From Rhynchobatus australiae (taxonomy: Eukaryota), in NCBI GenBank assembly GCA_034780895.1, contig JAUZTB010000069.1:9077476-9141475 (forward strand): DNA of 64,000 nt. Direction: 5' to 3'. Shown here one piece after another: positions 23,691 to 64,000 of this stretch; the stretch's first letter is position 1; each line of letters opens with the position of its first letter. The position numbers and the translations under genes were made by a program. Below the pieces are notes generated by a model. That model ran no database searches. It was not told the DNA's origin and saw only the letters and a list, made by a program, of their open reading frames with translations.

Positions 23691-25321
23691 AGTCCTGGAT
23701 ATCCTGTAACCACATCTCCGTAATAGCCAGCGCACATCAAGTATTTATCCAGGTACTTTTTAAATGTCATGAGAGAATTAGTCTCAACTATTTTTTAGGC
23801 AGTGACTGGGTTAAATATTGGGTGAAACTTAATTGCACATGTTTTATAGGAAAATACTATTGCTATTCAACTAAGTCAGTCTTTTGTACTTAGAGTGATA
23901 TGATCATTGTCATCCATTGCAAGATAAACTCAATCTTAAATGAATTTTTAAACAGGTCTATAACGGTGAAAAGAAACAATTTAAATCTTTCAATGGCTGG
24001 TTAAAAGAAGACTGGATGACAAGCTTGTTAAAACAAATCCTGCAGAAGACTAGAAAGAGGAAGGAACAACATGCAGCATCCTCAGGGAACTTTTACTGAC
24101 TAATGGAATTAATGTGAACTGACCTAACAGATACGTTAAAAAAATAATTTCAAATCTACCTTTCAATCCCACTGCTCAGTATCTTTCTCACACTAAAATG
24201 ATAAATAGCAAGTGCTTTAAATATGCAGTAGGCCCCCACTGTGTTTCAGTGGGGTTCTACAACAATGTGTCACATCAATGAGCAACCAAGTTATAATAAT
24301 TCGCAAAAGCCACATAAGCTGCAAGCAGCACTATGAAAATTGCCAGAGTAGTGGTTGAGTGAATAAAGTGAAACAAATGTTTAAATTTACCCTGAGTTTC
24401 CTGGTTACAGTAACTGTAATATGGTTTAAATTTTTCTGTTATTTTGATTATACTGCAACAGGAAAATAAAAGATGGAGGTAACATACATGTAGTTTTTTT
24501 TTTAGAAAGTGACAATTACTAACCCAATNNNNNNNNNNNNNNNNNNNNNNNNNNNNNNNNNNNNNNNNNNNNNNNNNNNNNNNNNNNNNNNNNNNNNNNN
24601 NNNNNNNNNNNNNNNNNNNNNNNNNNNNTTTTAGAAAGTGACAATTACTAACCCAATTATTAGTTTAACAGAATTTTGGCAGAGTTATGGATAAGGATAA
24701 GTTATATGGGGGAAAACACTTCCAGAATTTTTTCCCTCCTGATAAGAAATATTCTCTTGAAACTTTCCTGCAGAGGCTAAAATTCTTACGAATGAAAATG
24801 AGAGGAAACTGCACAAATAGGAACTAATAATAAATATTTTATTTAATCCTGATGATTGCTGATTATGCAAATTGAAAACCATTTCTAAGCAAAACAAAGA
24901 TTAAACAGATTAATTGATGTTTGTGAATGAAAATAGGCTTGGTAATCAACATATGATGCCTTTCAGTCTAAATGCACAGCTGTTGCTTAACACAAGTTAA
25001 AAAGGAATGAAAAACAAAAACTGTACATTTGCCAACTGAAAATGCCAGGAAACATTACAGATCTAGTCCTTCAACAGGACATAAAATTCTAGTCCCAAGC
25101 AAAAATCCTGGACCTGAAATATTAACTATTTCACACTCCTTAGATACTGCCTAACAAGTTGAATATTTTCAGCATTTTATGTTTTTATTTTGTTTTTACT
25201 ATCTTCACTGATCCACCATGCATTCTGTTATTATTTAAAGACCTAGTTAAGAGCTTATAGCAACTAGTAAATGGAAAAGCAGCATAGGAAATCTCTTCTG
25301 AAGAACAATGAGACAACTAAC

Positions 25322-41439: not shown

Positions 41440-42950
41440 ATGTAGTTGGAGCTACACACCAGAGGAAGGATGTGATGGTGCTGGAGAGGGTGCAGAGCAC
41501 ATTTACTAGGATGTTGCTTGGGATGGCACATTCCATTTATGAGGAGAGACTAGGTCTGTTTTCCCTGGAACAGAGGAAGTCAAGAGGGGAGATGATAGGA
41601 TTAATATGGATGAGTTCGCACTGGTTGGCACGGACGTGGTCATTGTTTTTCAAAATTCTTTAGATCCTGTAATGGTTCTGGGAGTTTGGAGAGTAGCAAA
41701 TATGACCTAACTATTTTAGGGAAGGAGAGAAAACACAGAAAACTACTAGCCAGTTAGGCTTACATTAGTAGTAGTGAAAATGCTGGAATTTAAAATGAAT
41801 CTTAGATTATCTAGAAAATGACACTAGGAATGAGCAGAGTCAAAATGGATTTAGGGAAGGGAAATTATGACTAATCTATGGAAGTTCCTTGAGGATGTGA
41901 CTAGTAGAACCGTTAAGGAGGAACCAGTAGATGTGATATATTTACATTTTCCAACACAGGTCGGTCAACAAGATTACAACACATGGANNNNNNNNNNNNN
42001 NNNNNNNNNNNNNNNNNNNNNNNNNNNNNNNNNNNNNNNNNNNNNNNNNNNNNNNNNNNNNNNNNNNNNNNNNNNNNNNNNNNNNNNAAGATTACAACAC
42101 ATGGAAGTTGATGTATACATTGCATGGATTGAAATTTGGTTAACAGACAGAAATCAAACACTGGGAATAAACAGGTCTTTCTCAGGGTGCAGGATGTAAT
42201 GTGTGGGCTACCTCTGTGATCGATGTTTGGGAATAATAACGTGCAAAAAAAAGTGAGGTTGTTTACTTTGGTGCACAAATAAAAGGCAAAGTATTTTTTA
42301 AATGATGAGGGAATGGGAAATATTGATGTTCAAAGGGATCTAGGTGTCCTTGTAGCCAAGTCACTGAAAGCTAACATGCAGGCACAGCAATTAAGGGAAA
42401 TGTATTATAAATAGCAAGAAAAATGTCTTACTGCAGTTATGTAGTGTTTTGGTGAGATCACACCTGGAGTATTGTGTACAGTTTTGTTCTTCTACTCAAA
42501 GGATGTTCTTGCCACAGAGGGAGCGCAACAAAGGCTCACTAGATGTCAGGTTTGTTGTATGAGGAAAGATCGAGTTAACTAGGCCTTATTCTCCATGGTT
42601 TAGAAAATGAGGTGATCTCCTTGAAACTTACAAATTCATCCGGGGTTTGATTGATAGATGTAGGGAAGTTGTTTCCCTGGCTGAGGAGTCTACAATCAAG
42701 GGGTCATGGCCTACCCCTTATTCTTTTCTCAGAGTGGTGAATCTATGGAATTTTCTACACCAGACTGTGGAGGCTAAGTCATCGAGTTAAATCAAAACAA
42801 AGAGCAAGACATTTCTGGAAATTACAAGAAACAAGGGATATTGCAATGGTGCAGAAAATGGAGCTGAAGCAGATAGTCAGCCATGATCTTGATAAATGAC
42901 AGAGCAAACCCGAAGGATCAGATGACCTACTCCTGCTGCTAGGTTATGGG
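41440..42950 (+). mobile_element. CR1/HER1-type LINE ORF2 fragments
   Basis: RKDVMVLERVQSTFTRML; TNLWKFLEDVTSRTVKEEPVDVIYLHF (RT motif); AWIEIWLTDRNQ; 3' end gtcagccatgatc. Confidence 0.8.
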
Positions 42951-57955: not shown

Positions 57956-58109
57956 CTCAAAACAGTAATCTTGTCCCAGAATGCTGCTGTGTACGGATTT
58001 AATTGTCACTTCTTCCTCCATACTGAGATCTAGTGCCTCGACAGCACTACTGGGACTGAGCAAAGACTCGTGAGAACGTGATTCTTTCAACCTCGGCATC
58101 AGACGTGAT
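57956..58109 (-). CDS. DAB2IP: DAB2IP coding exon, 154 bp (PH region): (R)[51 protein letters not shown]
   Basis: Read manually (absent from the ORF track). Acceptor tatttctgcag|A TCA CGT; donor TTT GAG|gtaag; phase 2 in, phase 0 out. Confidence 0.95.
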
Positions 58110-58252
58110 CTGCAGAAATATCAAAGGGCACATCAGAAATAAAGTCTCACTCATAAAATAATTGTTGTGAAATAAATGTAGCGATTATACATCACAAACC
58201 AGCCAACAAATTTCTGTACAAAACATGTAATGTGGATTTATTTAAAAAAAAC

Positions 58253-58690
58253 TAGAGACACAAGGGACTGCAGATGCTGGAATCTGGATCAAAAAACAAA
58301 CTGTTGGAGGAACTCAGTGGGTTGAGCAGCAACTGTTGGGAGGGGTAGGTGGGGCGGTAAGAAACTGTCAACATTTCAGGTTGAGATCCTGCATCAGGAC
58401 TGAGAATGGAGAGGGAGGATAACCATATAATGAGAAGGGGAAATAGGGGATGGAGGTGATAGATGAGCTGAGGACAAGTGAGGAATGAAGGGCAGAAGGA
58501 GCCAGGTGGGGGGAGGACGAGGGCTGCAGTCGGGAGACAGAGGCAGGTGGGTGATAGGTAGAAACAGACAAGGTGAAAAAAAGGGGGAGAGATGGACCCA
58601 GGTCGGGAGGGGAGGGTGAAGGTGGAGACAGAGGCTGGAGGGTGATAAGCAGGGACACAAAGGCTGCAAGTGCTGGAATCTGACAAGTAA
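58253..58690 (+). repeat. Interspersed repeat with purine-rich body and imperfect direct repeats at both ends
   Basis: gacacaagggactgcagatgctggaatctg (58257) ... gacacaaaggctgcaagtgctggaatctg (about 58654); internal ggaggaactcagtgggttgagcagc. Confidence 0.6.
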
Positions 58691-61600
58691 GGAAGCTGAT
58701 AATGGGAGCTATGCTGTGATTTTTCCTGAATGTTTTCTCTACAGCTGTTCTGCTGAAGAGCATAAATTATGTTCAGGCACAGACCCTTTGCAATGAATTA
58801 TTAAACAGGTGTTGAATTAACCAACTGGACATCTTGATGACCCTTGGCTAGGAAAAGAAAGCAAGGTTACCCAGAGCTCCTTGCCATGATGATCACTGCT
58901 GGGAATGGTTGGCAAGGTAGGATAGGATAGGTCTCAGCTGTAATAGCTTTTCATACTCAAACAACTCTGGCAATCATTGTCAATGAATTGCAAGTTTGGA
59001 ATGCCACTTCCAATTTAGTATGCAAAAGAATTTTTTAGTAGTGAATAAGGCAATTCTGCGCAGGATGTCGTCATAAATTCACAAGAGGAATGGAAGACAA
59101 ATGAAGTTGATTCAAAGTGGGGTTCCATTCTTGTACATNNNNNNNNNNNNNNNNNNNNNNNNNNNNNNNNNNNNNNNNNNNNNNNNNNNNNNNNNNNNNN
59201 NNNNNNNNNNNNNNNNNNNNNNNNNNNNNNNNNNNNNNATTGCTGTATTGTTTGATTTGTACCTAATTTTTCACAAGATAGTTATAATTAAAAATAACAC
59301 TGAATACAAAAGGCCATCTAGAGTATTGCACATTATACTTGCCAGGTAATCTTAATATGGTTTAATTCCACATATGGGTATTGCATTCAGGTCAGCAGTT
59401 GTACATGAATGTATTTAAAACTACATTGAATGAATTCAGCCACTCCAGCAGAAAGCTCTGCTTAAAGTCAGCAGAGACAAAAAAGTGTTACTTTGCTGTA
59501 GCCTGATGTGTGGTCCTGTTTCCTTAGATGGTGATTTCCCTGTTGGATTCACAGTATTGCTAAATGTACCCATGTACACAGCGTTAAGACCTATGTCATC
59601 CTGTCCAATCAACACTTCCCTTCACACAAAATCGTTGTCAGAAATTCTTGACATTCTAATCAATAAGTTGAAGTCCAATCTACACACAAGTATTACAAAT
59701 ATAACTGGAAGGAATCTGCTGCAGATGGAGTGAATTAAACAGTTGAGATTACATTTTCTATCTGAGATGCTTATAGGATCATCACTGTAGTTTCAGTGTG
59801 ATTGATGTAACTTGTTACTAGCAAAAAAAAATCATGTCTACATCCATCTTCACTGGAAAAATGTTTTCATTCCTCAAAGCCCACAGTTTTGCCCAACTTG
59901 GCCCAATGAAAGTGTCTTTTCTATCTGCTGCTCAAGCTTTCAGTTTACACTAAAGCACAAAATTGTTTGTTATTTTAATTAACTGTCTCAGCTAATTTTG
60001 AAATATCAGCCAGATCCAACTCAGTGTCAAAAGCTATTCTGGACTCTGCAAAGCCTCCGGCTTCTCTCCACATTCTTTGCAGGAGAATGATTTCTCATGT
60101 CGATTTCACATTTCACCCATAATTTCAGAGGATGGTGGCACTCAATATATAACTGTCTCAAAGGCAGCAAAGAAACATCAAATTCAAGGCTTCCCAACTG
60201 CTCCTGTCCATCAGTTACCAAGTCAAAAGAAACAACTTCAAAGGCTTGGAAAGCAGGTTGCTGCTTGCCCTCTCAGGAAGGACTTAATGTTCAGTGGAAA
60301 GTTTAAAACAATCTTTCAGTGATAAAGTAATCTTTTACTGTAAAGCTATGATGTTCAGACACACAGGAGTTAATGAAAATACAATGAGGTAAATAATGAT
60401 CAACTCAATCCATGCCTCATGTTCGACACCAATGGTGTTCTAAACTTTTACTGCCCCACGGGTCTCACTGCTGCCCCACAAAGTAACCTGGTTCACAGCC
60501 AACAGATCCCAAGCCTCACATTGGACCATGCTGTTGACTTTTGGTCAGATCATGCAGTCAAAGGCCTTTTAACTGTTTCTAAGTATCTAAAAATCAGAGT
60601 GCTTAAAACAGTTGCGATAAATTTAAATTAATTTTTTTTAATACAAAATCAAATTATCTGATAAAATTGAAATCATTAATATTAATTAAATTAACACTTC
60701 CCTGCACTTGGCAATTTAATCAGACTGGTGACCCCATTCAAACGGATGGGCTGCACTGCAATCTGGTGAAAAGGAACCAGGTATGAAGTGAAGCCAGGTG
60801 GTCTGAGTTCTGCCCTGAGCACTCAAGTGCCACCACCAGTGGGAAGTTGGATGTGCTGACATCGGACCTCTACTGCATTTCTGATTTCCACAGACCGTGC
60901 TGAACCACAAAAGGATCTTGCCAGCAGTTCTCTTCGAACCACTAGCAGGAGGTAACTATGCTTCTGATTGGTGCTATAATGCATGTAACGTTACTTCCTA
61001 TGTTTCACAACTTACATCGATTGTAATGCATAGAAAAACAAGTCCCTTTCTGAAAGAAAAGAAATCATGCTTAAATTAAGAAAAAAAATGGGGCTGTGAA
61101 CATTTCAATATTCTTCCTATCTGAACATGTTTTGCACAACAAACCATGTTATTGGATTGGACTGTAGTGCTTTGCTTCTGTAGAAAGTATTAGCAATGTA
61201 AATTTAGTAAACATCATCTCCAAAAAGCTAGTCTTTTAAAATACTTCCATGCATACATTAGATACCAGGGTGAAGATTGTCTCTCCCTTTAGTCAATCCT
61301 TTGCTCCACAAGTTGGTCAAAGTCACGACATTGTTACTGCTAATGAAAAGAAAATCAACTCATGGCGAGTCGATCAATGACTTGAAAAGCCCATTTCACT
61401 AAATGCACTTGTAGCTGGGATAATCCCTTTCATGCACTTTGCAGTAACNNNNNNNNNNNNNNNNNNNNNNNNNNNNNNNNNNNNNNNNNNNNNNNNNNNN
61501 NNNNNNNNNNNNNNNNNNNNNNNNNNNNNNNNNNNNNNNNNNNNNNNNNNNNNNNNNNNNNNNNNNNNNNNNNNNNNNNNNNNNNNNNNNNNNNNNNNNN

Positions 61601-62756
61601 NNNNNNNNNNNNNNNNNNNNNNNNNNNNNNNNNNNNNNNNNNNNNNNNNNNNNNNNNNNNNNNNNNNNNNNNNNNNNNNNNNNNNNNNNNNNNNNNNNNN
61701 NNNNNNNNNNNNNNNNNNNNNNNNNNNNNNNNNNNNNNNNNNNNNNNNNNNNNNNNNNNNNNNNNNNNNNNNNNNNNNNNNNNNNNNNNNNNNNNNNNNN
61801 NNNNNNNNNNNNNNNNNNNNNNNNNNNNNNNNNNNNNNNNNNNNNNNNNNNNNCATGTTGATGCCCTGCAATAATTATCTCATGGTTGAAGAGCTCAGGG
61901 AAAGAAAGCTATGGATAAGCAGATAGATCAAATGACAAGCAGAGCACAGACTTTAACTTTTAAAGAGTAACCTTGAATCAGGAGGTCCACAGTGAGAAGC
62001 AAAAATTCATAAAATGAAAACAGAATGCACAAGACATTAGGCAGCTGACCTGCTCTGTACTGTCCCATCCTGAAAGGTCTAATTGTAATTTTAATTTCCA
62101 GAAACTTTCTAGCAGCATTTGCTCAGATTGTTTAAAGAACGTGGTCAAATTTAAATGCCAATATTAATGTACACAAACATACACTTTAAAATTTAAAATG
62201 TCAATATGTAATTGAAAAAAATTGTGGCTGAATTCAAACTCATTTACCTCAATATAAATCAACTGATCAGAATTTTAGGCACAAAAAGTAACAGAATACA
62301 CAAGCTCAAAGTATATTTTATTGATAAATAGCTAAGTTTGTACTACTTTTCAGCAATCCTTAAATTATTATTCTAGAGCAGAAACCAACCTTTTTAAAAT
62401 CATTATTTTTCACCCATTTGCAGAAATCCCTTATTTATAGGCAGTATTTTATTTAATTCTGCCCTTTATCAATTCCGAACAGAGCAGCTAAAAATCCTGG
62501 ACATCAACTACACAGCTGACAGGAAATGGGTATCCTTATAAAATTACAAACTTGCTCACAGACTAAAACACCAAAGCCGTTTAATTCCTGGTACTATCAT
62601 TAAAAGTGTTTACATGAAAAATGTGACGTACTTACAGAAGCAGCATAGGGCTGTTGTGGCTGTTGCCTGTGGTTCAAATAATTACAATTCAAAATAAAGC
62701 ATAGCCAGTTAAAGGCCATGACTTCCAGCAGCTGAATGAATGATAACTGCTTGTAC

Positions 62757-63072
62757 CTGCCTATATAGAAAAGTAATAGAGTCCTAGCAACCTTCAGCCC
62801 AACCTTCTCTACGTGGGCAGCCGTGAATGGAACAGTATAAGTAAACAGTTCAGCCGGCAGCTTGACTGGCACATNNNNNNNNNNNNNNNNNNNNNNNNNN
62901 NNNNNNNNNNNNNNNNNNNNNNNNNNNNNNNNNNNNNNNNNNNNNNNNNNNNNNNNNNNNNNNNNNNNNNNNNNGGCAGCTTGACTGGCACATTTATTTT
63001 GATTGGCTTCCCTGTAGTCAGGCAGGCGGACCGACTCAAAGCAAATGCTAACATTTGTTCAAATTCCAGCAT
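62757..63072 (-). CDS. DAB2IP: Candidate alternative first coding exon of DAB2IP (65 codons + 2 nt after closing an apparently false gap)
   Basis: Gap 62875-62974 has identical 19-bp flanks. Merging them gives MLEFEQ...KINVPVKLPAELFTY...LLLFYIG ending at donor GGC AG|gtacaa, phase 2, compatible with the 58109 exon. No transcript evidence. Confidence 0.4.
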
Positions 63073-64000
63073 GTGCTACCTCAGCCTGACAATTCTTCCT
63101 GTCCTACTCCCCCACCTCTCCCGCTTTCCTGGAAGGAAACTGGACCAGCTTAATAAACAAGTATACTCTGGAAAAAAACTATAACCTATCTTACAAAATT
63201 ACACCAAAATCCTCTTGTTCAAACTACACGGCTAAATCAAATGGAAGGCGCATTGATTTCGTCAGCTTGCCTTGAAATAAAATAGTTCAACTACATTATT
63301 CGATTTCTAGTTTGGACTCTTTTAGCACAATAGATCTGATTTTCTCTAACCTAATGCTGCTTTGATTGCAATAAATATATGATTTGATTTTGGTTCAAAA
63401 ATGAGTTTAGAGATTTTATTTTCTTATAGTGTGACTTAATGTGGCCACACAAATAAAAGCAAGACATCAAGTAATCGTGCTCATGGAATCCAAGCAGACC
63501 AGTTTGTGTCTGGGAGAGGAAGGATGCAGCTGTGCACATGCAGTTCCCTACATTGTGGCCAACAGGCAGGAAGAGCAGCAACACTGTTTCAAAAGGAACA
63601 ATAATCAGAGCTTTGCTTGTGCTCAGATGTCAGTAATTGGTAACAGAACTGTATTATAGCAATGGTAGTACAAGAATGCAATTTGCCTCTAGATAATGAC
63701 AGATGTGGTCGNNNNNNNNNNNNNNNNNNNNNNNNNNNNNNNNNNNNNNNNNNNNNNNNNNNNNNNNNNNNNNNNNNNNNNNNNNNNNNNNNNNNNNNNN
63801 NNNNNNNNNNNATTCAAACAAAATCATATAACATTAAGTGCCAATGCTTTCAAAAGATCATGCTGATAAAGGGTTAAGAAAAATGGGTGTTCTCTGTGTC
63901 ATCAGGGCCAATATACTTACTGTTAAAAGATCCTTGAAGATTTAACTTCACACTGTCGTCGTACTTCAGCATCATGCAGCTTTAACTTCTTATTACTTAT

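What the first reader, a model, noticed from the sequence alone, without database searches (positions are those of the whole stretch)
62757..63072. Hidden in-frame alternative first exon of DAB2IP masked by a false assembly gap
Seen: the 100-N gap 62875-62974 is flanked by the same 19-mer, ggcagcttgactggcacat (62856-62874 and 62975-62993). Collapsing it joins two ORF-track fragments into one minus-strand frame, MLEFEQMLAFALSRSACLTTGKPIKINVPVKLPAELFTYTVPFTAAHVEKVGLKVARTLLLFYIG. An in-frame TAG lies two codons before the ATG. The frame reaches a CAG|GTACAA donor in phase 2, which is what the 58109 exon needs (AG+A = Arg, then [10 protein letters not shown]). I recognise no repeat in the region. 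Known: DAB2IP and SYNGAP1 use alternative promoters that give different N-termini. Inference: this is an internal-promoter isoform replacing the front of the PH region with a 65-aa leader ending in a hydrophobic patch (TLLLFYIG), or a leader exon for the MPRLKES start. Caveats: phase matches by chance one time in three, and the Kozak context is weak.
Basis: partly seen in the sequence, partly recalled or inferred. Interest (0 to 1): 0.7.

Follow-up and report, generated by a model that had tools for sequence, protein, structure and literature searches.

The report
DAB2IP internal first exon, four-residue leader
The assembly gap here is false and the spot likely is an internal start of a ray's DAB2IP gene, but the likely product begins with four residues (MLLL), as already annotated in skates and devil rays, not with the proposed 65-residue leader, which is broken in relatives.

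Summary
The 19-mer flanks the 100-N gap, and contigs of 4 of 4 related taxa laid carry one copy and nothing in the gap. The joined 65-codon frame and the phase-2 CAG|GT are real. The 65-aa isoform is not supported. One relative has a 16-nt frameshift that ends the frame after 20 codons. The only database homologue (P0003) loses the frame's end and the donor. 0 of 65 cartilaginous-fish DAB2IP proteins seen carry the leader. ORF-plus-donor combinations of this quality occur 5 times on the sense strand and 4 times on the antisense strand of this intron. This matches annotated Mobula, Amblyraja and Leucoraja isoforms starting M[LF][12 protein letters not shown], and it is the only such site with a GTRAG donor in the 87-kb intron (0.01 expected). 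The likely product is a DAB2IP lacking the front of its PH domain, like mammalian AIP1B or SynGAP C. No RNA junction could be examined. Ordinary; low interest.

The parts
62636..62646 (-). Coding end of the likely alternative first exon: ATG 62646, M-L-L plus two bases of a split Leu codon (phase 2)
   Evidence: matches annotated N-termini of P0124, P0008, P0007
62630..62635 (-). Donor GTAAGT of that exon; 4526-nt intron to the acceptor above 58109
   Evidence: only M[LF]L(L)|GTRAG site in the 87-kb intron
62647..63072 (-). Likely 5' UTR and promoter-proximal DNA of the exon; start site not determined
   Evidence: inference; held by contigs of organisms D, E, F and by the P0003 organism
62875..62974 (.). 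False 100-N gap; 62856-62874 and 62975-62993 are one 19-mer written twice
62757..63072 (-).
62751..62756 (-).
63005..63020 (.).
62636..62719 (-). First part of a predicted 48-codon out-of-frame upstream ORF (ATG 62719, -3 G and +4 G) that would overlap both the MLLL and MPRLKES starts after splicing
   Evidence: frame open in D, E and P0003; whether this ATG is transcribed is unknown
62735..62767 (-). TATA-like TATATAG (62767) with an Inr-like TTCATT 30 nt downstream; weak hint only, first T is C in D, E, F
   Evidence: 4 such pairs in 79,787 nt; motif definitions recalled
57956..58109 (-). DAB2IP exon beginning [10 protein letters not shown] (mid PH domain), the acceptor exon

Best explanation
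The stretch around the false gap is likely the 5' part of an internal alternative first exon of a batoid DAB2IP gene, which ends at 62636 and would encode only M-L-L-(L) before splicing to the [10 protein letters not shown] exon. Transcription from an inferred internal promoter would skip all exons above, about 82 kb further up. The product would be about 1073 aa, with C2, RasGAP and C-terminal domains intact and the first 47 of 127 positions of the PH profile missing. Both ATG 62646 and the MPRLKES ATG have C at -3 and +4, so leaky scanning to the second is likely. Shown: false gap, sequence anatomy, match to annotated N-termini, breakage of the long frame in relatives. Inferred: transcription, start site, splicing and translation in this species.
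For: 3 of 65 named cartilaginous-fish proteins seen begin M[LF][12 protein letters not shown]: Mobula X7 (XP_062929515.1, XP_072096143.1), Amblyraja X5 (XP_032905063.1), Leucoraja X6 (XP_055515752.1). In the 86,772-nt intron (6,985 N) the pattern with a GTRAG donor occurs once, at 62646; Markov expectation 0.01. The two other sites with any GT have GTATTT and GTTTTC. P0003, the homologue of this region, reads YVSSVS at this place, which allows MFLL plus GTAAGT (the Leucoraja form) and not MLLL. Pfam PF25321 covers positions 48-127 in P0124 against 2-127 in P0128.
Against: No spliced read or start site was seen. I did not see the genomic position or RNA support of the RefSeq models; the link to 62646 rests on pattern uniqueness and P0003, and MFLL is one of about 130 leaders compatible with P0003. 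Both donors score 6 of 9 against the consensus, so strength does not separate them. The F deletion is one contig of one run. Only 15 of 41 and 15 of 65 members of the two large clusters were listed.
Confidence: 0.85

Rival explanations
1. The exon has two alternative donors. The 62757 donor is also used and gives a non-coding leader for the MPRLKES start. This can hold alongside the best explanation.
For: Donor scores 6 of 9, like the 62636 donor; no change listed in D, E, F. 6 of 65 proteins start at MPRLKES, and the Mobula one has at least 4 accessions, which suggests several non-coding leaders.
Against: Donor absent in the P0003 organism; no junction seen.
Confidence: 0.2
2. One reading: a transcript starting above 63072 splices at 62757 and adds a 65-aa leader with a hydrophobic end, restricted to some rays.
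For: Frame, ATG and donor intact in A, D, E; 6 of 11 changed sites synonymous. The same ATG opens 105 codons in P0003, though P0003 could only be found because its frame is long.
Against: Stop after 20 codons in F; end and donor lost in P0003; 0 of 65 annotated proteins; chance frequency 5 sense against 4 antisense; D differs at 7 of 197 nt in the ORF against 23 of 1060 and 18 of 816 in intron contigs.
Confidence: 0.05
3. The region is plain intron in this species; the MLLL site is a silent remnant or a coincidence.
For: No RNA evidence here; no CpG island (CpG o/e about 0.3 at the exon); divergence in D not below intron level. A decayed copy of a shark first exon seems to lie further up the same intron, so such exons can die.
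Against: Exact leader and canonical GTAAGT retained, expectation 0.01; annotated in three batoid genera.
Confidence: 0.08

Closest known systems
Batoid DAB2IP short isoforms M[LF][12 protein letters not shown] (Mobula X7, Amblyraja radiata X5, Leucoraja erinacea X6; RefSeq models, 1073 aa)
   Same: Same four-residue leader, same phase, same acceptor exon.
   Different: Nothing found at protein level; transcription in this species not shown, and the genomic position of those models not seen.
Mammalian short DAB2IP (AIP1B); DAB2IP start-site diversity
   Same: [quoted passage not shown]
   Different: Exon homology and exact N-terminus could not be compared: the primary paper PMC7204498 is not held; I saw only its title, which says it localizes to mitochondria.
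SynGAP C (SYNGAP1 paralog)
   Same: Internal promoter, no unique peptide, incomplete PH domain (passages of PMC3621422).
   Different: Different gene; here four unique residues precede the shared exon.

Membership tests
DAB2IP orthologue | Exons match DAB2IP proteins with PH, C2, RasGAP and C-terminal domains | tested here: met
   936 of 961 aligned residues identical to Pristis pectinata DAB2IP, the best of 8 proteins tried; Pfam on relatives
Batoid M[LF]LL first exon | ATG, two codons, two bases and a GT donor in phase 2, in the intron above the [10 protein letters not shown] exon | tested here: met
   62646-62636, the only site with GTRAG
Batoid M[LF]LL first exon | Same locus as the annotated exons | tested here: inconclusive
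   P0003 allows MFLL plus GTAAGT, not MLLL; genomic records of the annotated species were not available
Batoid M[LF]LL first exon | Spliced transcripts and a start site | not testable with these tools
   No listed run is on record as RNA
Conserved 65-aa coding first exon (reader) | Frame open in relatives | tested here: not met
   Open in D and E; broken in F and P0003
Conserved 65-aa coding first exon (reader) | Donor conserved | tested here: not met
   No change listed in D, E, F; not encodable in P0003
Conserved 65-aa coding first exon (reader) | Present in annotated isoforms | tested here: not met
   0 of 65 seen; only hit is an unnamed Logan ORF that runs on past both donor positions; cluster listings were partial
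Conserved 65-aa coding first exon (reader) | Synonymous excess | tested here: inconclusive
   6 of 11 sites, P 0.035-0.084
AIP1B / SynGAP C type PH-truncated isoform | Lacks the front of the PH domain, keeps C2 and GAP | tested here: met
   Tested on the Mobula orthologue P0124: PF25321 positions 48-127 only
AIP1B / SynGAP C type PH-truncated isoform | Own promoter; altered localisation or activity | not testable with these tools
   Needs CAGE or RACE and cell assays

The most novel reading that the evidence does not exclude
The exon works as a translational switch for PH-truncated DAB2IP. Splicing at 62636 keeps a strong-context out-of-frame ATG (62719) whose 48-codon frame covers both the MLLL and MPRLKES starts and represses them.
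Probability: 0.1. Interest if true: 0.45.

Novelty: new member of a known kind. Interest (0 to 1): 0.2.

Why it matters
Little. It corrects an assembly artefact and locates, in one more ray, a short DAB2IP isoform already annotated in skates and devil rays. It suggests that PH-truncated DAB2IP from an internal start, reported in mammals to act opposite to the full-length form (review passage), also exists in cartilaginous fishes; homology of the exons was not tested. The upstream-ORF switch, if true, would add a translational control on that isoform.

Tried and rejected
RNA test: no RNA holder listed; this is no evidence either way. It ends beside a CCGG site and could be a reduced-representation DNA fragment, so I did not use it. 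One search was flooded by a repeat at about 58250-58700 and its tables were cut. The profiles covered only the second piece of the ORF (40 and 38 positions), so the first 27 residues were not scored. One search (90-aa frame, near lengths) found no candidate, not even P0003, which shows the limited sensitivity of that search. I first took the 62636 donor as stronger; both score 6 of 9. A cassette-exon reading through an acceptor-like site at 63129/63128 would hit an in-frame stop within eight codons (read by eye); not pursued. The TATA/Inr pair is not conserved in D, E, F. Pfam found nothing in P0001, P0002, P0003. Literature: DAB2IP with chondrichthy gave 0 papers; DAB2IP with uORF gave 2, neither relevant by listing; one search gave 0; none of the 10 listed holds DAB2IP; some searches were seen as listings. 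No supplements were read. Earlier findings: none near.

Full report
Observation. The 19-mer stands on both sides of the 100-N gap at the stated coordinates. Removing the gap and one copy gives a 65-codon minus-strand frame from ATG 63072, with TAG two codons above, reaching CAG|GTACAA in phase 2 at 62757; the exon at 58109 needs phase 2. Both flanks gave one match in the genome.

The gap is false. 3 of 9 100-N gaps in the window have terminal overlaps of 18-29 nt; in the next 200 kb 7 of 24 do, against 0 of 38 sized gaps. Contigs of organisms B, D and E join 62855 to 62975, skipping 119 nt; organism F also has one copy (4 of 4 runs). The run labelled organism A listed no contig across the gap, so this is shown in relatives only.

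Setting. The gene is DAB2IP of a batoid; the closest of 8 proteins tried is Pristis pectinata (936 of 961 residues). The canonical upstream PH exon lies at window-equivalent position about 145,150, so the finding sits in an intron of about 87 kb, 4.6 kb above the [10 protein letters not shown] exon.

The 65-aa leader fails most tests. (a) Chance: this intron has 5 sense-strand and 4 antisense combinations of an ATG frame of 65 codons or more with a phase-2 donor scoring 6 of 9 or better. (b) Organism F lacks 63005-63020, which ends the frame after 20 codons; this rests on one contig of depth 12.3. (c) The only homologue in two protein searches is P0003, an unnamed Logan ORF. It leaves the frame after KVGL, lacks the hydrophobic end, and none of 2592 codon choices places AGGT or GGTA at the donor. 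(d) 0 of 65 named cartilaginous-fish DAB2IP proteins seen carry the leader; the two large clusters were listed only in part (15 of 41, 15 of 65). (e) D differs at 7 of 197 nt in the ORF, against about 2.2 percent in two intron contigs. In its favour: ATG, frame and donor are intact in D and E, and 6 of 11 changed sites are synonymous (P 0.035-0.084).

What is there instead. Of the 65 proteins, 45 carry the upstream PH exon, 6 start at MPRLKES, 3 start M[LF]LL, 10 have other leaders and 1 lacks the exon. The M[LF]LL forms are Mobula X7, Amblyraja X5 and Leucoraja X6. It is the only site with a GTRAG donor; 100 Markov simulations give 0.01. Spliced in a script, it reads MLLL into [10 protein letters not shown]. 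P0003 reads YVSSVS at the same place, which allows MFLL plus GTAAGT, the Leucoraja form, and not MLLL; MFLL is one of about 130 compatible leaders, so this is consistent rather than proof. I could not check ATG 62646 in D, E or F, because began at 62640 and differences near piece ends are not listed.

Mechanism. Inferred: an internal promoter above 62646 makes a transcript whose first exon splices across 4526 nt to 58109. The protein would lack the first 47 of 127 PH profile positions and keep C2, RasGAP and the C-terminal domain (on the Mobula orthologue). Both in-frame ATGs have weak context, so initiation at either is likely. The start site is unknown. A TATA-like and Inr-like pair points to 62737 (4 such pairs in the intron), but the TATA changes in D, E, F; there is no CpG island. 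An out-of-frame ATG at 62719 in strong context would open 48 codons over both starts; that frame is open in D, E and P0003.

Known context. Human DAB2IP has at least four start sites, and a short form lacking the PH domain had opposite effects in mouse vascular models (passages of PMC11239834; passages of PMC11825346). Mouse gene-trap data suggest a further promoter (passages of PMC3541190). SynGAP C comes from an internal promoter and lacks a complete PH domain (passages of PMC3621422). The AIP1B primary paper was not held. A search for DAB2IP with chondrichthy found 0 papers.

Verdict. Artefact correctly spotted, general idea right, peptide and donor most likely wrong. The likely exon is the orthologue of one already annotated in three batoid genera. 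No RNA junction could be examined. Interest 0.2.

Noticed in passing
G000:C69 about 9217970-9218030 (window-equivalent 140500-140552, minus strand): Looks like a decayed copy of the shark first exon M[DE]SISLCFWN[LF]CIQ (Stegostoma X7, Cetorhinus X4): starts MDSI, shifts frame into FWNFCLQ, and has AT where the donor GT would be.
   Followed up: partly
window-equivalent 145288-145314, minus strand: MCQCAAALT matches the Rhinoraja X5 leader MCQCVAALT just above the PH exon, but no GT donor follows at the expected place.
   Followed up: partly
window 24529-24628 and 41988-42087: Two more 100-N gaps with terminal overlaps (29 and 18 nt), probably also false.
   Followed up: no
window about 58250-58700: Very high-copy repeat just above the 58109 exon; depth about 290,000 against about 7 for unique DNA in X1.
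   Followed up: no
window-equivalent about 145100: The canonical PH exon is cut by an N gap after SSFRH in this assembly.
   Followed up: no
proteins P0064, P0093, P0075: Short leaders before the same exon occur in a teleost (MFHIFSK) and in mammals (MRGLV); whether they are homologous to MLLL was not tested.
   Followed up: no
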